Shown one piece after another: positions 33,480 to 39,216 of a stretch of 64,000 nt of DNA. The position numbers and the translations under genes are program-made. The first letter of the stretch is position 1; each line of letters begins with the position of its first letter. The notes under the pieces are model-generated. The model was not told the origin of the DNA. It saw only the letters and a program-made list of their open reading frames with translations, and made no database searches. The stretch lies in NCBI GenBank assembly GCA_963664395.2, contig OY761159.2, positions 576,001 to 640,000 on the forward strand, in the 5' to 3' direction. This stretch comes from Candidatus Binatia bacterium (GTDB lineage: Bacteria > Desulfobacterota > Binatia > Bin18).

Positions 33480-33569
33480 TGGCGGAGAGGGGGGGATTCG
33501 AACCCCCGATACCCGAAGGTATACACGATTTCGAGTCGTGCGCGATCGACCGGACTCTGCCACCTCTCC
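33480..33569 (-). tRNA. tRNA-Ser(CGA)
   Basis: GGAGAGG acceptor stem, CACGA-CTCGAAA-TCGTG anticodon arm, long variable arm, GGTTCGAATCC, encoded CCA. Confidence 0.95.
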
Positions 33570-33650: not shown

Positions 33651-34145
33651 CTAACGATGCCGCTTCTCCCGGAAAAAACGTTGGAGGAGCGTCCGACACT
33701 CCTCTTCACAGACCCCACTCGTGATGTCCAGGCGATGATTCAGACGGGTATCCAGGGCAATATTATAGAGCGATCCTGCGGCACCGGCTTTGGGGTCAAA
33801 ACAGCCAAAGACGAGGCGTTTGACCCGCGCGGACACTAACGCCCCCATACACATCAGACAGGGCTCGACCGTTGTGTATAGCGTGGCATCTACCAACCGG
33901 TAATTCTTCATATACAGCGCGGCGTGCCGCACGGCTTGGATTTCCGCGTGAGCAGTCGGGTCGGTAGTTGCAATAGGCGTATTATGGCCCCGGCCGATGA
34001 TCTGCTCTTCCAGAACTACGACCGCACCAATCGGCACTTCGTCGGCGGCCTCCGCCAATGCGGCTTGTGCCAGGGCGGCTTGCATCCAGGCCCTATCGTG
34101 CTCAGCCTGTCGGTCCGTTCTGGGAGAATTGTTTTCAACTGACAT
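33651..34145 (-). CDS. tadA: tRNA adenosine(34) deaminase
   Basis: EVPIGAV, DPTAHAE, TVEPCLMC, DPKAGA. Confidence 0.95.
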   Translation of the reverse strand: MSVENNSPRTDRQAEHDRAWMQAALAQAALAEAADEVPIGAVVVLEEQIIGRGHNTPIATTDPTAHAEIQAVRHAALYMKNYRLVDATLYTTVEPCLMCMGALVSARVKRLVFGCFDPKAGAAGSLYNIALDTRLNHRLDITSGVCEEECRTLLQRFFREKRHR

Positions 34146-35756
34146 CTTCGGCGGCTCGCAACGGCACCCGTTCTTGGCTCTGCCTCTTGTTGTCACGAAC
34201 AACCCGGCGCAACTCATCCAGCGTTCCGACCCCTCCCCGACTCCCGACAATACTATCAACTGCGAGGTCGTATCTCTCGATGGCGTTGAGGAGGTCCCGA
34301 GACCAATCGGCAACCTGTCGGACGGCTCCCGGCGTAAACAGGTCGGCCACAAAGAGTAAGCGTTCCTCAGGCAGATAGACGATCAACATCCCATCCACAT
34401 GCACGGTCTCAATCGGGTAGACAATAACCACCCGATTTTCATCAACGAAAAACTTGCGCTCATTCTTGACTGCTTCAATGACAGCAATGCGCGGACGACG
34501 ATGGAGGCTGTCCGGGACTTGGGTATGAAGCGCACGAAAGGCGTCTTGGAAGAGTGGGACGTTCAGCGCACTGGTCACCACAATCGTATCGGCTGCCACA
34601 TAGGCCCGCAGTCCACCCGCGTGCTCAGCTATGAAAGTGCGTATTAACGACAAACCGGACAGGCTTGGTTGGAAAGCGTTGACGTAACGTATCGAGTACC
34701 GCGAGTGAGTGTGTATCGTCCTGGGGGGCCTCAACCACAATCAGGTACTCGCCCATCTCAACGGCCAGACTCTGATATCTTCCACCGACAATATGCATCA
34801 CCCCTGGGGCAAGGTCACGAAGCACTGGCGTTGAAGCGGAAGTACCAACCGGGTCGGCCCTGGGCAATCTGACGCAGCACCCAGTGAGAACTCTGTTCTC
34901 CGCGCGCCCCGTCCCACTCTTCCGGCTGCTCGATCTCTTCCGGAATAGTAAAGTCCACTTGGGAAAGATCAACATCGTTCTGAATAACCTCAACATGTTC
35001 AACCATGATGGTCTGGCCGTCGACCCGGTAGGTCCGTTCAAACGGGAGTCTGAGCTTTCCAACTTGACGCCAATCGGCAAAAAACACTTCGTTCTGAACG
35101 TCCCCATACAAAGGATCATCTTCAACAAAGACGACCTTGGTCAGTAGTCGCGTTTCCGAGTCAATGGCCAACAGGACGAGCTGCGTATTATCATTAAACG
35201 AGACAACCACTTGGCGGCGGCCATGAATCGTTTGATCCATTAAACGCAGAAAGGAGTCCGAACGACTCAGCGCATGAATAAGGACGGAGACGGGCGAACG
35301 GCGCAGCTCTTTTTGACGGGCGGCAATACGGGTGGCCGACATCGCCCGTCGGCGTGGACTATCAAAGCCATCGTGTCCGAGTATGACGCCATCAAGTCCG
35401 CTCATGACCTCCGTGTATTCCCAGGTTTCCCGAAAGGGATATATGAGCGTGCGCTCCCACTCATAGCGCACTCGGCCCTGCTCCAAGTCTTGGAAGAGCA
35501 CGTACCGAAATTCTGACACCTTCTGTGGCTCGGCTCCTGGCCGCGGACTCAGGTCGGGCTCAAAATTCTCGCCATGGCTGATAATACGCTGACTTTTGAG
35601 GTCAAGCAGGACCGGCCGTTCGCCAATCGCGAGCACGGCCGAATTGACAAAAACCTTGGCAGGTTGGGCCCACACCAGAGGAGGGCAAAAGAGCAGCGAC
35701 AGACAGACACCCCAGACAAGACGTGTCGCAATACTGACGGCTCTCCGCTTTTTCAT
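34135..35756 (-). pseudogene. Exported MBL-fold protein with two frameshifts (pseudogene or assembly errors)
   Basis: Signal peptide and DDPLYGD (frame A), LAPGV...VVNTHFHS (frame B), EHAGGLR...HVDGML...LFVADLF (frame C); shifts near 34850 and 34628. Confidence 0.8.
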
Positions 35757-35779
35757 CTGTCCTGGAGGAAAAGGCCCGA

Positions 35780-36403
35780 TTAACCGGTCAGTCCAATCCG
35801 GACCTCTTCGTAACTCGGCCGGCTTTTCAGCCGCTCAGCCCAGGCTGCCACTTTTGGAAATGGACTGAGGTCGATACCTAATAGGTCGCCCAACCCAAGA
35901 AACGGGGTGAAGGTCAGATCGGCAAGGCTATAGTCGCCCATGAGATAGTCTTGATTCCGGAGCCGCTCCTCGAGTTGAGGAAAGAGTGCGTTGAGCCCGT
36001 CTCTATTCCGTGTCATGCGTTCCGGGTCTTGTTCCTCTGCGGGTTTGCGGCTGGTATACAGCAGACGAATGATCGGTGGTACGAACTGGCTGTTACACAT
36101 TTCGATGAGCAGCCGCATTTCAGCCCTGGCGGCTGGCGCCGACGGCGCTAATGCCGGCGTGGGGTATTTGTCTTCCAAATACTCGTTACAGATGGCCGAC
36201 TCATAGACCCACGTCCCTGCTTCGACCAGCACCGGCACTTTGCCGTAGGGGTTAATGGCAAGAAACCAGGGTTCCTTTTGTTCTTTGCTCGGCAGGTCTA
36301 TCAGAATGCGATCAAAGTCGAGGTCTTTTTCTTTGAGAACGATCCTCGTTCTCATAGCGAACGGTCAAGGCAGATAGTCAAACAACTTTCTTTTGATAGT
36401 CAT
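35780..36403 (-). CDS. Glutathione S-transferase, probable selenoprotein (UPFA active site)
   Basis: GAGGAG RBS, MTIKRKLFDYLP-TGA-PFAMRTR, INPYGKVPVL, ESAICNEYLED, YSLADL. Confidence 0.85.
36334..36354 (-). promoter_or_regulatory. Putative bacterial SECIS element
   Basis: TGAGAACGA-GGA-TCGTTCTCA perfect 9-bp stem starting at the 11th nt after the in-frame TGA (36365-36367), with GG in the loop. Confidence 0.7.
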
Positions 36404-36529
36404 GCGCGGCTCCTCTCCATGCGGTGCAAATGGCTCTTCAAACGTTGACCTTAGAAAGACCGGGTGGGTACGTCAAGTCTCTTCGTCCGACGAGAGGGCA
36501 CATTCCTCAACAGAGACAGGCGGACGGCT

Positions 36530-36994
36530 CTAAATATCATACATCGGTACATGCGAGCCGCGGCGCCGGCTTGCTTCGGCGCGTTTGCACATCTCCGCCA
36601 CACTCACCTGAGCAAAGGCTGAGGCAATGGACGCACCGACTTCCAGCATAATACTGCGCAGCCAACAATATTCGAGACTGACACAGTCCGCGCATGTTAC
36701 CGGGTTTGCATCTTCCACACAGGGTAAGGGAGCCAGTGGGCCGTCTACCGCCCAGACAACCTCTTGTAACGAGATGGCCTGTGGGTCGCCCACTAACGTA
36801 TATCCTCCGGCCTTGCCACGCGTACTGTGGACAATGCCGGCTCGCTTGAGTGCGAGAAGCACTTGTTCCAGAAATTTCTTGGGAATGCGTTCTCGACGGG
36901 CAATCTCTTGAATAGGCAATACCTCAGGAGCGCCAGGCGCTCCCAGGCAGGTAAGCGCCCTGAGAGCATATTCGCTTTTCTTCGATATTTTCAT
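36530..36994 (-). CDS. Rrf2 family transcriptional regulator (CymR/IscR-like, Cys-rich)
   Basis: SEYALRAL, FLEQVL, STRGKAGGY, C-x8-C-x2-C-x5-C. Confidence 0.92.
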   Translation of the reverse strand: MKISKKSEYALRALTCLGAPGAPEVLPIQEIARRERIPKKFLEQVLLALKRAGIVHSTRGKAGGYTLVGDPQAISLQEVVWAVDGPLAPLPCVEDANPVTCADCVSLEYCWLRSIMLEVGASIASAFAQVSVAEMCKRAEASRRRGSHVPMYDI

Positions 36995-37185
36995 AAATCA
37001 CTATTTACTTAGTAGACAATGGTTCCTCTAGTCAATCCCAATGCCTTGCCAAAATTTTTATCAGCAAAGTACTTGACATACGGGCATGAATACTCATAAA
37101 TGAGCTTTATAAGACGATAAAAACTATAGATTTAATAGTGATTAGCCGCTCATTCAAAACAATCAAGTCTGAGGAGAGCCGGACT

Positions 37186-39216
37186 ATGGATTCAGCCACG
37201 ACAGAAAGTAGAGGAAACGGGCGCGTAGGCACCCTTGAGAACCCTGAAGTGCCCCCCAATATTCCCGGCCGCGTCATCCCGATTCTTGAAAGGGAATTCG
37301 ACGATTTTGATGACGAAGCGCGCAAGTTTCTTGATGGAGATATAGACCGTCAGGCATTTATGGGTTTTCGGCTCCGCCAAGGCGTATACGGACAACGGCA
37401 ACCCGATGTCCAGATGATCCGGGTCAAGCTCCCCTTTGGTGGAGTAACGCCGGACCAGTTCGACGCGTTTGCCGACATCGCCGAAAAATATGCGCCGCTC
37501 AAAAAAGGCCACATCACTACCCGACAAAACGTCCAGTTCCATTTCATTCCCCTGCTGGAAGCAGCACGAGCCATTCGTCTGCTCGGCGACTCTGGTTTGT
37601 CGACGCGGGAAGCGTGTGGCAACACGGTCCGGAATGTTGTGTGTGATCCGTTTGCCGGAGTTGATCCGGACGAAGCATTTGACCCAACCCCGTACGTTGG
37701 CGCGCTGGTCCGCTATTTTGTTCGCAACGAACTGACCCAAGCTCTTCCCCGAAAATTTAAGATGGCCTTTTCCAGCACCGATAAAGACCGTGCGGTGACT
37801 GGTATTCACGACCTCGGCTTTATCCCTCGCCTCAAAAACGGGCGCAAGGGTTTCAGCATCTCTACCGGCGGGGGTACATCAATTCTGCCCCGGGTGGGCC
37901 GCATGCTGTATGACTTTGTTGGTGTAGACGAATATCTCAAAGTCGCGGAAGCCGTGATCCGTATTTTTGATCGGCAAGATGAGCTGCGCAAAAACCGAGC
38001 CCGGGCCCGTATTAAATTTTTTATCGATCGGATTGGTCTGGATGCGTTTCGTGCGCTCGTTGACGCTGAGATGCGAGGCGACTGGATCAACGCACGCAAC
38101 TTTGACCCCACGCCTCTGCAATGGAATGACAACGAAGAAGAGCGTGCCCCACACGCCCCCATCAATCCTATCAATCCCGGCAGCCCGAACGGCGACCGGC
38201 AGGAGTTCGCCCGCTGGGCCGCCGCCAATGTACAGCCACAACGCCAGGACGACTTTTCGACCGCGGAAGTGAAGATCGCCCGGGGTGATCTTACGCCTGA
38301 ACAGTTCCGGGGTATGGCGCAGATCATGCGGGATTTCAGCGGTGGTCATGCTCGGACGTCGGACGAACAGAATGTGGTGCTGCGTTGGGTCCGCAACGAG
38401 AGCCTGTATGATGTGTGGCTTCGCCTGCAAGCAATCGGTCTGGGTGATGCCGGCGCACGACAGATCACTGATGTCGTGAGTTGCCCTGGTACTGACAGTT
38501 GTAAGCTCGGCATTACCAACTCCATGGGCCTGGCTCAGGCAATCCAGCGACGTGTTGAAGAACTGGCCAAAGAGCTGACAATGGACGATCCGCTCACCAA
38601 AAAAATCCATATCAAGATAAGCGGCTGCCCCAACGGCTGTGGACGCCATCACATTGCCAATATTGGCTTTTACGGCGCAGCCATGAAGTTCGACACGCGT
38701 CAGGTTCCGGCCTATATCGTCATGCTGGGCGGCCAATACGACGCTGGTCAGGTCCGCATGGGTCAACGCCTGAATGTCCGCGTTCCGTCAAAACGTGTTC
38801 CTGAGGCAGTGGAACGATTTGTGCGGCATTATCAGGCCCAGCGTCACACCGCTGAGGCATTCAACGCCTTCGTCGATCGTGTTGGGACCGGCCCGTTTGA
38901 AAGGCTGATCGCTGACCTTTCACTTCCGGTGACGTTTGACGACGAACACCTGAACGAATTTATCGATTGGAACCAAAATCGCGTCTATAAACTCGAACGC
39001 GGCGAAGGCGTGTGTATAGCCAGAGCTATACCAGTATCGGCTGTGCTCCATGCATCCGACCAACTGAAAAAGGGGAAGACGCGCGCGCGGCGCTGGTGGT
39101 GGGAAAACGGGAAAGGCGGAGCAATAAAAGAGTGCGGCATGCACTGCTCTCTTGAAAGCGGCCGTTTTGAGCGCGAATACAGCGCGGGCTTTCATCAGAA
39201 CGGCGAGGGTATTTAG
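37186..39216 (+). CDS. sir: Ferredoxin-type nitrite/sulfite reductase with an abnormal CysH-derived C-terminus
   Basis: GVYGQRQ, TTRQN, REACGNTVRN, LPRKFK, SCPGTDSC, SGCPNGCG. Confidence 0.88.
   Translation: MDSATTESRGNGRVGTLENPEVPPNIPGRVIPILEREFDDFDDEARKFLDGDIDRQAFMGFRLRQGVYGQRQPDVQMIRVKLPFGGVTPDQFDAFADIAEKYAPLKKGHITTRQNVQFHFIPLLEAARAIRLLGDSGLSTREACGNTVRNVVCDPFAGVDPDEAFDPTPYVGALVRYFVRNELTQALPRKFKMAFSSTDKDRAVTGIHDLGFIPRLKNGRKGFSISTGGGTSILPRVGRMLYDFVGVDEYLKVAEAVIRIFDRQDELRKNRARARIKFFIDRIGLDAFRALVDAEMRGDWINARNFDPTPLQWNDNEEERAPHAPINPINPGSPNGDRQEFARWAAANVQPQRQDDFSTAEVKIARGDLTPEQFRGMAQIMRDFSGGHARTSDEQNVVLRWVRNESLYDVWLRLQAIGLGDAGARQITDVVSCPGTDSCKLGITNSMGLAQAIQRRVEELAKELTMDDPLTKKIHIKISGCPNGCGRHHIANIGFYGAAMKFDTRQVPAYIVMLGGQYDAGQVRMGQRLNVRVPSKRVPEAVERFVRHYQAQRHTAEAFNAFVDRVGTGPFERLIADLSLPVTFDDEHLNEFIDWNQNRVYKLERGEGVCIARAIPVSAVLHASDQLKKGKTRARRWWWENGKGGAIKECGMHCSLESGRFEREYSAGFHQNGEGI
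39013..39216 (+). pseudogene. cysH: 3' remnant of APS/PAPS reductase
   Basis: Alternate frame reads YSQSYTSIGCAPCIRPTEKGEDARA, then RWWWE...KECGMH. Confidence 0.8.

What the first reader, a model, noticed from the sequence alone, without database searches (positions are those of the whole stretch)
35780..36403. Hidden selenoprotein: GST with selenocysteine at the catalytic position and a SECIS-like hairpin
Seen: the ORF track starts this GST at 36355, but an RBS (GAGGAG) and ATG at 36403 give MTIKRKLFDYLP-TGA-PFAMRTR in the same frame. A perfect stem TGAGAACGA/TCGTTCTCA with a GGA loop begins at the 11th nt after the TGA. Established: Cys-type (omega-like) GSTs use a CPF(A/S) motif at this spot, and bacterial SECIS elements sit just 3' of UGA with a G-containing apical loop. 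The loop GG here is at +20/21, versus about +19/20 in E. coli fdhF as I recall it. Sec-GSTs have mainly been reported from marine metagenomes and are little studied. Inference: TGA encodes Sec. The gene also lies downstream of the Rrf2 regulator of the sulfite reductase locus.
Basis: partly seen in the sequence, partly recalled or inferred. Interest (0 to 1): 0.88.

Follow-up and report, generated by a model that had tools for sequence, protein, structure and literature searches.

The report
Selenocysteine glutathione transferase, mis-annotated as truncated
This gene encodes a glutathione S-transferase whose catalytic residue is almost certainly selenocysteine, read from an in-frame TGA with the help of a conserved RNA hairpin; the protein type was already predicted from marine metagenomes, but this lineage is recorded in databases as a truncated protein that lacks its active site.

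Summary
On the minus strand a Shine-Dalgarno site and ATG 36403 open a 207-codon frame with TGA at codon 13 (36367-36365). A perfect 9-bp hairpin with a GGA loop follows 10 nt later.

The TGA is kept in 27 of 27 same-genus genomes and 7 further genomes of the same order. The 12 upstream codons are conserved as protein while their third positions vary. Of 31 distinct ortholog sequences, 30 carry TGA and 1 carries TGC. The hairpin pairs in 99.3% of cells, with G:C to A:U and A:U to G:C swaps at synonymous sites.

Full-length relatives have Cys at this column in 10 of 12 cases. The genome has selA, selB, selD and tRNA-Sec, plus at least 11 other selenoprotein candidates. Four independent runs show the same TGA.

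GST-like selenoproteins have been known since 2005 (PMC1088965), so this is a new member of a known kind. In the database, 98 of the 120 best clusters start at Met17. The link to Rrf2 and sulfite reductase is not conserved (13 of 31 loci).

The parts
36410..36418 (-). Shine-Dalgarno sequence GGAGAGGAG, 6 nt upstream of the true start codon
   Evidence: Read directly. A GGAG-type purine run at this place is kept in most of the 30 loci, while the leader further upstream diverges.
35780..36403 (-). Full selenoprotein CDS: 207 codons plus the TAA stop; a GST with Sec13
   Evidence: Translation with TGA=U. Pfam GST_N_2, GST_N_3 and GST_N match from residues 6-13 onward, together with GST_C. AF2 model pLDDT 86.5 with a GST fold.
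36365..36367 (-). In-frame TGA, codon 13: selenocysteine in the motif U-P-F-A
   Evidence: Conserved in 34 relatives' genomes. No difference in 4 of 4 runs laid. Aligned to Cys in 10 of 12 relatives and to the Cys of CPF in the solved Burkholderia SspA-like proteins 6v91 and 4qq7.
36334..36354 (-). SECIS hairpin: 9-bp stem with loop GGA (36343-36345), formed by the codons for M17-R-T-R-I-V-L-K24
   Evidence: -11.3 kcal/mol for the 25-nt piece. Covariation: pair 27-33 is GC in 18 and AU in 12 rows; pair 24-36 is AU in 20, GU in 7 and GC in 3 rows; 99.3% of cells are paired, against 37-49% when the partner is slid.
36353..36355 (-). ATG of Met17, the false start used by gene callers (191-aa product lacking strand beta1 and the catalytic residue)
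   Evidence: ORF list. 98 of the 120 best database clusters begin MRTRI. No purine-rich Shine-Dalgarno site precedes it. Met17 is Gln in the TGA-bearing ortholog L051/L075.
36530..36994 (-). Rrf2-family regulator gene upstream; a neighbour here, not a conserved partner
   Evidence: Pfam Rrf2, 113 bits. Present upstream of the GST in 13 of 31 loci. Absent in the closest relative L052.
34135..35756 (-). Downstream metallo-beta-lactamase-fold gene with a signal-peptide-like N-terminus, starting 23 nt after the GST stop; split over three frames in this genome
   Evidence: Follows the GST in 30 of 31 loci. Intact 539-aa ORF in L052 with Pfam Lactamase_B. Two 1-nt insertions in the window copy near 34853 and 34628.

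Best explanation
The gene at 35780-36403 (minus strand) encodes a 207-residue cytosolic-type glutathione S-transferase. Residue 13 is selenocysteine, in the motif U-P-F-A, which is the Sec version of the CP[F/Y]A motif of cysteine-type GSTs.

Decoding (inferred from the anatomy). Translation starts at ATG 36403. When the UGA at codon 13 reaches the A site, SelB carrying Sec-tRNA(Sec) is held by the hairpin whose GGA loop begins 19 nt downstream. Sec is inserted and translation continues.

Catalysis (inferred from the family). Sec13 sits at the N-terminal end of helix alpha1 in the glutathione site. It probably acts as the nucleophile of a glutathione-dependent reductase or deglutathionylase: it attacks a glutathionylated or disulfide substrate, forms an enzyme Se-S-glutathione intermediate, and is regenerated by a second GSH.

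I give about 0.93 to the Sec-GST identity and about 0.5 to this particular chemistry. The 191-aa protein recorded in public databases is a gene-calling artefact.
For: Shown here:
1. The TGA is kept in the best match of 27 of 27 same-genus genomes and of 7 of the 10 other genomes of the same order. One of the remaining three is cut by its contig and two have no ortholog.
2. All 30 loci read M..KRKLFDYLP*PFAMRTRIVL, whereas the 5' leader diverges. Codons 11-12 occur in 9 nucleotide versions that all encode Leu-Pro. The stretch before the TGA is therefore translated in this frame.
3. Of 31 distinct ortholog sequences, 30 have TGA and 1 has TGC. Relatives at 39-67% identity have Cys at this column in 10 of 12 cases.
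4. The hairpin is kept in all 30 TGA forms. 99.3% of cells are paired, against 37-49% for slid partners, with double synonymous swaps ACG/ATC to ACA/ATT and AGA/GTT to AGG/GTC. The 4-fold-degenerate third base of the Leu codon CTC in the stem is invariant. The single Cys form has an A.C mismatch and folds at -5.0 kcal/mol, against -9.0 to -13.7.
5. All four published bacterial SECIS criteria are met: loop 3 nt, stem 9 bp, GG at the start of the loop, 19-nt spacing, -11.3 kcal/mol (criteria from the PMC13188914 Fig. 2 legend; values).
6. tRNA-Sec with anticodon tca, selA (596 bits), selB (390 bits) and selD (316 bits) are all present.
7. At least 11 further in-frame-TGA genes in this genome have a Pfam domain running across the TGA: 4 CMD/AhpD, 1 DsbA, 2 glutaredoxin, 3 UGSC, 1 GrdB. 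Their loops start 17-23 nt after the TGA.
8. The AF2 model places strand beta1 at residues 5-9 and the start of helix alpha1 at residue 14, so U13 caps alpha1 and beta1 is encoded upstream of the TGA. Foldseek finds GSTs. The closest solved chains have CPF aligned to UPF, and one of them (4qq7) was solved with bound glutathione.
9. gshB is present at 406 bits.
10. The same TGA appears in contigs of 4 of 4 runs from 4 studies, two of them metatranscriptome libraries.

From the literature: cysteine-type GSTs carry out deglutathionylation and carry CP[F/Y]A motifs (passages of PMC4138524).
Against: - There is no direct evidence of selenium in the protein.
- The fold energy of the 66-nt region is ordinary: z = -0.69, with 45 of 200 shuffles folding at least as well.
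- Most of the 9 stem pairs sit in first and second positions of conserved codons (M-R-T-R-I-V-L-K). Their conservation could therefore be protein-driven. Only two pairs actually vary, both at synonymous third positions; a third pair includes the invariant third base of the Leu codon.
- In one search, two of the five measures do not exceed the shuffles: pairs with a change on both sides, 2 against a mean of 1.7 (359 of 500 shuffles reach it), and further pair types, 4 against 4.7 (498 of 500). The tool warns that the cell-based measures are inflated by relatedness.
- The four closest paralogs listed within this genome have Ser, not Cys, at the column, and one outside relative also has Ser.
- The consensus scan finds no sigma-70-like promoter on the minus strand upstream of the gene.
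- Rfam holds no matching family.
- Contigs from RNA libraries do not prove transcription, and say nothing about translation.
- The catalytic role is inferred from family knowledge only. NCBIfam gives no equivalog; every match is far below its cut-off.
Confidence: 0.9

Rival explanations
1. The same Sec-GST is decoded in the same way, but it works mainly as a glutathione peroxidase. Sec13 is oxidised by a hydroperoxide to a selenenic acid and is recycled by two GSH. It would not then be a deglutathionylase.
For: Engineered GSTs in which the active-site Ser or Cys was replaced by selenocysteine gained glutathione peroxidase activity of the same order as natural GPx (passages of the review PMC9944854). 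The genome's other selenoprotein candidates are mostly peroxide or thiol redox families: AhpD/CMD, glutaredoxin and DsbA.
Against: According to PMC4138524, the cysteine-type GSTs characterised so far show thioltransferase and DHAR activity but no peroxidase activity, apart from a slight one in a Beta-class enzyme. Nothing in the sequence distinguishes the two chemistries. No peroxide-stress gene is a conserved neighbour.
Confidence: 0.25
2. The UGA is a true stop. The real product is the 191-aa protein from Met17, and the 12 upstream codons are a leader peptide or non-coding sequence.
For: Gene callers annotate it this way in 98 of the 120 best database clusters. Met17 is conserved in most orthologs.
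Against: The 12 upstream codons align to strand beta1 of the GST fold in Cys homologs, and the Pfam GST_N models begin at residues 6-13. They are under amino-acid-level selection, with synonymous variation. No Shine-Dalgarno site precedes Met17. Met17 is Gln in the TGA-bearing ortholog L051/L075. A 191-aa product would lack both beta1 and the catalytic residue.
Confidence: 0.03
3. The UGA is read through, but by a near-cognate or suppressor tRNA that inserts Trp, Cys or Arg rather than by the Sec machinery.
For: Leaky UGA readthrough exists in bacteria (recalled, not tested here).
Against: The complete Sec machinery is present. The hairpin has SECIS geometry and is maintained by compensatory changes, and it is weakened in the one Cys form. 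The same geometry is seen in 11 other selenoprotein-family genes of this genome. The homologous residue is Cys, the usual counterpart of Sec.
Confidence: 0.03
4. The TGA is a nonsense mutation in a decaying gene, or an assembly error.
For: The gene immediately downstream carries two 1-nt insertions in this assembly, so indel errors or pseudogenes do occur nearby.
Against: The TGA is identical in 34 other genomes at 66-93% protein identity and in contigs of 4 of 4 independent runs. Both flanks are under purifying selection.
Confidence: 0.01

Closest known systems
GST-like selenoprotein family of marine metagenomes (Zhang, Fomenko and Gladyshev 2005, PMC1088965; GOS analysis 2008, PMC2398784; listed in the reviews PMC9312934 and PMC13188914)
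   Same: A COG0625 / PF13409 glutathione S-transferase with a single predicted Sec, a bacterial-type SECIS and widespread Cys homologs. It was found by bioinformatics only. PF13409 is also the best Pfam hit here.
   Different: Those papers count 4 sequences (Sargasso) and 12 Sec against 1,036 Cys sequences (GOS), and give no motif. I saw only table rows and passages. The present lineage belongs to Candidatus Binatia MAGs, including runs labelled sponge metagenome. It is deeply conserved within one order.
Cysteine-type GSTs with a CP[F/Y]A active site (Omega and Lambda classes)
   Same: The catalytic residue lies at the N-terminal end of helix alpha1, followed by P-F-A. Human GSTO1 and GSTO2 match at E = 4e-18 to 1e-17 over residues 7-197. 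The expected chemistry is deglutathionylation or thiol transfer through an enzyme-glutathione mixed (seleno)disulfide (PMC4138524 passages; PMC3621891 abstract).
   Different: Sec replaces Cys. Only 12 residues precede the catalytic residue, whereas in the GSTO1 chains the aligned region begins at residues 25-30. The best sequence matches are SspA-like proteins, not Omega GSTs. Class membership is not established.
Burkholderia SspA-like proteins with CPF (PDB 6v91, 4qq7)
   Same: These are the closest solved relatives (E = 8e-28 and 1.6e-27, 31-33% identity). CPF aligns with UPF, and 4qq7 was crystallised with glutathione.
   Different: The NCBIfam SspA equivalog scores 67 bits against a cut-off of 314, so this protein is not an SspA. 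Those proteins have Cys, not Sec.
Engineered seleno-GSTs (rat GST T2-2, human GSTZ1-1, Lucilia GST; review PMC9944854)
   Same: Selenocysteine is placed at the catalytic position of a GST scaffold beside the glutathione site.
   Different: Those enzymes were made artificially, by chemical conversion or auxotrophic expression. This one is genetically encoded through UGA and SECIS and is conserved in nature.
E. coli fdhF SECIS

Membership tests
Bacterial selenoprotein gene (UGA decoded by SelB and SECIS) | In-frame UGA inside a frame that is conserved as protein on both sides | tested here: met
   All 30 loci read ...KRKLFDYLP*PFAMRTRIVL. There are 9 synonymous versions of codons 11-12. TGA is present in 34 relatives' genomes.
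Bacterial selenoprotein gene (UGA decoded by SelB and SECIS) | Cys (or Sec) at the aligned position in homologs | tested here: met
   10 of 12 relatives have Cys, 1 has Ser and 1 is a truncated call. One ortholog has TGC. Four distant paralogs have TGA at the same column. The four own-genome paralogs listed have Ser.
Bacterial selenoprotein gene (UGA decoded by SelB and SECIS) | Bacterial SECIS consensus: apical loop 3-9 nt, upper stem 4-16 bp, G in the first two loop positions, 16-37 nt between UGA and loop, MFE at or below -7.5 kcal/mol (PMC13188914, Fig. 2 legend) | tested here: met
   Loop GGA (3 nt), 9-bp stem, 19-nt spacing, -11.3 kcal/mol. The bSECISearch program itself was not available.
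Bacterial selenoprotein gene (UGA decoded by SelB and SECIS) | selA, selB, selC and selD in the genome | tested here: met
   tRNA-Sec at 66.7 bits with anticodon tca; selB 389.8 bits; selA 596.3 bits; selD 316.3 bits. All are above their cut-offs.
Bacterial selenoprotein gene (UGA decoded by SelB and SECIS) | Selenium demonstrably present in the polypeptide | not testable with these tools
   Needs 75Se labelling or mass spectrometry.
Cytosolic GST superfamily | N-terminal thioredoxin-like domain plus an all-helical C-terminal domain | tested here: met
   Pfam GST_N_2 at 72.5 bits and GST_C at 43.8 bits. AF2 model pLDDT 86.5. Foldseek TM 0.73-0.84 to GST structures.
Cytosolic GST superfamily | Glutathione-site residues: Val-(cis)Pro before strand beta3, and Glu/Asp-Ser at the start of helix alpha3 (roles recalled) | tested here: met
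   V56, P57 and S69 are invariant across alignment A1, with E or D at position 68. That these residues bind GSH is recalled, not tested.
Cytosolic GST superfamily | The organism makes glutathione | tested here: inconclusive
   gshB is present at 406 bits, above its cut-off. gshA was not searched.
Cysteine-type GST (Omega/Lambda-like) | Active-site motif C-P-[F/Y]-A at the N-terminus of helix alpha1 (PMC4138524) | tested here: met
   The motif is U-P-F-A, with U13 directly before helix 14-25. Sec stands in place of Cys.
Cysteine-type GST (Omega/Lambda-like) | Assignment to the Omega class proper | tested here: inconclusive
   GSTO1 matches at E = 4e-18, but SspA-like, LigF and plant Phi GSTs score as well or better. 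No class-level tree was built.
Stringent starvation protein A (SspA) | Score above the NCBIfam equivalog NF007016 cut-off | tested here: not met
   67 bits against a cut-off of 314.
GST-like selenoprotein family of Zhang et al. 2005/2008 | COG0625 / PF13409 protein with one Sec and a bacterial SECIS | tested here: met
   family description.
GST-like selenoprotein family of Zhang et al. 2005/2008 | Same Sec position as, or orthology with, the published marine representatives | not tested

The most novel reading that the evidence does not exclude
The order of Candidatus Binatia that holds this genome carries an old, vertically inherited Sec-GST orthogroup, in which a Cys form arose once secondarily. 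At least three further GST lineages of the class independently hold Sec at the same catalytic position. Together they form part of a thiol-redox selenoproteome of 12 or more genes that has not been described for this phylum. If so, the Sec-GST would be the natural counterpart of the engineered seleno-GST peroxidases, and public protein databases systematically hide it as a 191-aa fragment.
Probability: 0.45. Interest if true: 0.55.

Novelty: new member of a known kind. Interest (0 to 1): 0.42.

Why it matters
No natural selenocysteine GST has been characterised biochemically, as far as the reviews I read say: the 2026 review calls the functions of these families largely uncharacterised. This orthogroup offers a well-supported candidate. 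It comes with a natural Cys variant (L076/P0013) and a simple, covarying SECIS for reporter tests.

It also exposes a systematic annotation error. 98 of the 120 best database clusters are called from Met17 and so lack strand beta1 and the catalytic residue. That error would mislead any function or structure prediction built on those entries.

Finally, the genome appears rich in selenoproteins. Two literature searches found no selenoprotein account for Binatia.

Tried and rejected
Checks that gave nothing or only weak hints:
- Rfam scan of 36200-36520 at E up to 1: no match. Rfam appears to hold no model for this element, so this says little.
- Sigma-70 and terminator scan of 35600-37200: no promoter-like site on the minus strand, and only one weak terminator-like site inside the downstream gene. 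How the gene is transcribed remains open.
- RNA-library contigs end at 36425 (X15) and 36427 (X16), about 22-24 nt upstream of the ATG. X16 has a second contig covering 36409-36600, so this is at most a weak hint of a 5' end.
- Formate dehydrogenase as an in-genome reference SECIS: none of the 17 TIGR01591 matches contains a stop. I therefore ran my own crude scan instead.

The scan gave 1,150 TGA-plus-hairpin candidates, of which 190 had a non-self tblastn hit across the U. Most of these were off-frame repeats. A separate motif filter on the 1,150 candidates kept 61. I picked 16 by eye for Pfam (15 from the motif filter, 1 from the hit list):
- 11 were supported.
- 1 was weak (ArsC, 22.5 bits, below cut-off 24).
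- 1 GrdB-like paralog had no hit.
- 3 were rejected: C1:1241857, C1:974855, and C1:634781 inside the window.
The scan pre-selects hairpins with a G in the loop, so only the clustering of loop starts at 17-23 nt, within the allowed 14-33, is informative.

Further points:
- Regulatory link to Rrf2 and sulfite reductase: rejected as a conserved feature.
- NCBIfam naming: no family reaches its cut-off.
- I had assumed that the paralogs at about 40% identity in this genome were Cys forms. One search shows Ser at that column in the four listed.
- Complex prediction, the protein-atlas search, the search of protein representatives and the metagenome-contig scan were not used. The question did not need them.
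- Supplementary files were never requested. The supplementary selenoprotein lists of PMC2398784 and PMC13188914 could already contain Binatia GSTs, and I could not check that.
- The claim of 'not in print for Binatia' rests only on the listings (terms 'binat' + 'selenocysteine'; and 'selenoprotein' + 'sponge' + 'symbiont' + 'selenocysteine'). One search shows that the one Binatota paper mentions selenocysteine only in a reference.
Full report
OBSERVATION

On the minus strand the sequence reads GGAGAGGAG (36418-36410), then 6 nt, then ATG (36403). The frame continues ACT ATC AAA AGA AAG TTG TTT GAC TAT CTG CCT TGA (36367-36365) CCG TTC GCT ATG (36355)... into the 191-aa GST ORF of the mechanical ORF list, ending with TAA at 35782-35780. 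Read with TGA=U, it gives a 207-residue protein, MTIKRKLFDYLPUPFAMRTRIVLKEK....

Ten nucleotides after the TGA lies a perfect 9-bp stem, TGAGAACGA/TCGTTCTCA (36354-36346 and 36342-36334), with loop GGA (36345-36343). The loop Gs are thus the 20th and 21st nt after the TGA.

Taken alone the hairpin is not compelling. The 66-nt region folds no better than its shuffles (z = -0.69; 45 of 200 shuffles fold at least as well). A Watson-Crick stem of 9 bp or more with a G-led loop at this distance follows 30 of 31,425 sampled TGA triplets of this genome, about 0.1%. That would leave on the order of 150 such sites genome-wide by chance.

IS THE TGA REAL AND TRANSLATED THROUGH?

Contigs of 4 of 4 runs laid, from four different studies, cover 36365-36367 with no difference. 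Two are DNA or probably DNA and two are metatranscriptome libraries. The only nearby difference is 36359 G>A in one run, which is synonymous (TTC to TTT).

Across whole genomes, the best match to the read-through protein contains exactly one TGA in 27 of 27 genomes of the same genus. The same holds in 7 of the 10 other genomes of the same order that were searched. Of the other three, one match is cut before residue 30 and two genomes have no ortholog.

In all 30 loci fetched, the frame reads M..KRKLFDYLP*PFAMRTRIVL. The 5' leader diverges, apart from a GGAG-type purine run kept at the Shine-Dalgarno position in most loci. A second, overlapping set from genome contigs gives 31 orthologs at 64% identity or more; 30 have TGA and one (L076) has TGC.

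Pooled, there are 31 distinct 60-nt versions. Codons 11-12 occur as nine different nucleotide strings that all encode Leu-Pro. That is the signature of amino-acid-level selection on the stretch before the TGA.

The Pfam GST_N models start at residues 6-13. In the AF2 model (pLDDT 86.5), strand beta1 is residues 5-9 and helix alpha1 starts at residue 14. The 12 upstream codons therefore encode the first strand of the thioredoxin-like domain. The TGA encodes the residue that caps alpha1, which is the catalytic position of GSTs.

Met17, the start used by gene callers, has no Shine-Dalgarno site. It is Gln in one TGA-bearing ortholog, L051/L075.

SEC/CYS PAIRING

Twelve relatives at 39-67% identity were aligned. 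Ten have Cys at the column of the TGA (CPF or CPY), one has Ser, and one is itself a truncated call. The closest solved structures, the Burkholderia SspA-like proteins 6v91 and 4qq7, align CPF to UPF, and 4qq7 holds glutathione.

Within this genome the four paralogs listed have Ser at the column. The family therefore contains Ser, Cys and Sec forms.

Four more distant GST paralogs in other genomes of the class (37-40% identity) also carry TGA at exactly this column: HWPT-U-PYCQK, DYKP-U-PWARK and SC[HR]T-U-PYAHRTRIVL. Two of them have a GGA-loop hairpin at the same place.

In a maximum-likelihood tree the 37 distinct ortholog proteins form one clade (100/100). The single Cys form sits inside a supported sub-clade (95/94) among Sec forms. 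The root is at the midpoint only, with Cys outgroups. This fits a secondary Sec-to-Cys change. The Cys-form genome still has selA.

SECIS

The published bacterial consensus, as read in the Fig. 2 legend of PMC13188914, asks for four things:
- an apical loop of 3-9 nt and an upper stem of 4-16 bp;
- a G in the first two loop positions;
- 16-37 nt between the UGA and the loop;
- an MFE at or below -7.5 kcal/mol.

Here the loop is 3 nt (GGA), the stem 9 bp, the spacing 19 nt and the MFE -11.3 kcal/mol. All four are met.

On the 30 distinct TGA sequences, 99.3% of cells pair, against 37-49% when the partner is slid by 1-3 columns. Pair 27-33 is G:C in 18 rows and A:U in 12, with no mismatch. Pair 24-36 is A:U in 20, G:U in 7 and G:C in 3. 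These are coupled synonymous changes: Thr ACG with Ile ATC becomes ACA with ATT, and Arg AGA with Val GTT becomes AGG with GTC. On the tree they are scattered over several clades. The third base of the Leu codon CTC inside the stem never varies, whereas the Leu codon upstream of the TGA has five versions.

In the one Cys form the stem has an A.C mismatch and folds at -5.0 kcal/mol, against -9.0 to -13.7 for the TGA forms. This is a single case and only anecdotal.

Caveats. Most of the nine pairs lie in constrained codon positions. Two of the five measures do not beat the shuffles (359 of 500 and 498 of 500 shuffles reach them). The tool warns that relatedness inflates the cell-based measures.

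MACHINERY AND CONTEXT IN THE GENOME

The genome, of the same genus as MAGs titled Candidatus Binatia, holds:
- tRNA-Sec with anticodon tca, and selA within about 450 nt of it on the opposite strand;
- selB;
- selD, fused to a pyridine-nucleotide-disulphide oxidoreductase domain.

None of its 17 formate-dehydrogenase-like matches has a stop.

My own crude scan looked for a TGA followed by a hairpin of 7 bp or more, followed separately by a hit check and a motif filter. Sixteen candidates picked by eye went to Pfam. Eleven have a selenoprotein-family domain running across the TGA: four CMD/AhpD (CxxU), one DsbA-like (UPYC), two glutaredoxins (UGPC, UGFC), three UGSC and one GrdB-like. One is weak (ArsC), one GrdB-like paralog had no hit, and three were rejected. 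Their loops start 17-23 nt after the TGA, and the GST loop starts at 19. The Sec system is evidently in use, and the GST element has the geometry usual for this organism. gshB is present.

NEIGHBOURHOOD

In the window the gene lies 126 nt downstream of an Rrf2 regulator gene. That gene is divergent from a NirA/Sir-type sulfite reductase gene.

This arrangement is not conserved. Rrf2 precedes the GST in 13 of 31 loci, and in the closest relative (93% identity) the upstream gene is hisC.

The conserved neighbours, in 30 of 31 loci, are a downstream gene followed by tadA. The downstream gene encodes a 539-aa metallo-beta-lactamase-fold protein with a signal-peptide-like N-terminus. In the window this gene is split over three frames by two single-base insertions.

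WHAT IT IS AND HOW IT PROBABLY WORKS

Shown here: a GST-fold gene with a conserved in-frame TGA at the catalytic position, a covarying hairpin of SECIS geometry, and complete Sec machinery.

Inferred: SelB-dependent insertion of Sec13. Also inferred is a catalytic cycle like that of cysteine-type GSTs, whose CP[F/Y]A motif UPFA mirrors (PMC4138524 passages). In that cycle the selenolate attacks a glutathionylated or disulfide substrate, forms an enzyme Se-S-glutathione intermediate, and is released by a second GSH.

A peroxidase cycle is the main functional rival, because engineered seleno-GSTs gain glutathione peroxidase activity (PMC9944854 passages).

COMPARISON WITH WHAT IS KNOWN, AND NOVELTY

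GST appears among the new selenoprotein families of the Sargasso Sea, with 4 sequences (table rows of PMC1088965). It appears again in the GOS data, with 12 Sec against 1,036 Cys sequences (table row of PMC2398784). It is listed as 'GST-like, PF13409, 1 Sec' in the 2022 and 2026 reviews, and the 2026 review says these families remain largely uncharacterised. The kind is therefore known.

I could not test whether the marine representatives share the Sec position. NCBIfam gives no equivalog, and SspA is excluded at 67 bits against a cut-off of 314.

What this case adds:
- a deeply conserved Binatia orthogroup with strong comparative support;
- further Sec-GST lineages in the class;
- a natural Cys revertant;
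- the finding that 98 of the 120 best database clusters begin MRTRI, that is, they are called from Met17.

Two literature searches found no selenoprotein account for Binatia.

VERDICT

This is a new member of a known kind, of moderate interest.

Noticed in passing
window 34135-35756 (-): The gene just downstream of the GST is split over three reading frames by two single-base insertions, near 34853 (a C run) and 34628. In the closest relative (L052:3647-5266) it is one intact 539-aa ORF with a signal-peptide-like N-terminus and a Lactamase_B domain. It is either a pseudogene or an indel error of the assembly.
   Followed up: partly
G000:C1 at 550546(+), 1752402(-), 3693000(+), 984920(-), 423779(+), 537950(+), 3757167(-), 4735103(-), 3806249(-), 383591(-), 3754206(+): Eleven further in-frame-TGA genes have a selenoprotein-family Pfam domain spanning the TGA and a hairpin 17-23 nt downstream: 4 CMD/AhpD (CxxU), 1 DsbA-like (UPYC), 2 glutaredoxins (UGPC, UGFC), 3 UGSC and 1 GrdB-like. 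A GrdB-like paralog at 1853906(+) and an ArsC-like gene at 4189956(-) are weaker. This points to a rich thiol-redox selenoproteome.
   Followed up: partly
L018:1393-3657 (-) = G000:C1 about 4506183-4508447: selD is a 755-aa fusion of an N-terminal pyridine-nucleotide-disulphide oxidoreductase domain (Pyr_redox_2) with the AIRS and AIRS_C selenophosphate synthetase domains.
   Followed up: partly
G000:C1:2573200-2573292 (+) and 2573734-2575065 (-): The tRNA-Sec gene lies about 450 nt from selA, on the opposite strand.
   Followed up: no
window 36530-39216, compared with L052:1797-3000: The divergent Rrf2 and sulfite reductase pair lies between hisC and the GST in the window. It is absent in the closest relative, where hisC directly precedes the GST. 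It is a variable two-gene module.
   Followed up: partly
L107 (G037:C15), L108 (G060:C11), L109 (G039:C85), L110 (G055:C302): Other GST paralogs (37-40% identity) in other genomes of the class also carry TGA at the catalytic column. L109 and L110 have a GGA-loop hairpin at the same distance.
   Followed up: partly
window about 58781 (-) = G000:C1:634781: An in-frame TGA in a CGKU context is followed by an 11-bp hairpin with its loop starting 20 nt downstream. The 106-aa read-through product has no Pfam match, so it is probably a chance hit.
   Followed up: partly
window 33480-33569 (-): A tRNA-Ser gene (anticodon cga) lies next to the tadA-like deaminase gene at 33651-34352. It gave a sub-threshold hit to the tRNA-Sec model.
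   Followed up: yes
L066, L067, L072, L074, L076, L078 (record titles): Several MAG records that hold clear orthologs of this Binatia gene are titled 'uncultured Enterobacteriaceae' or 'Klebsiella pneumoniae'. These are probably mislabelled submissions.
   Followed up: no
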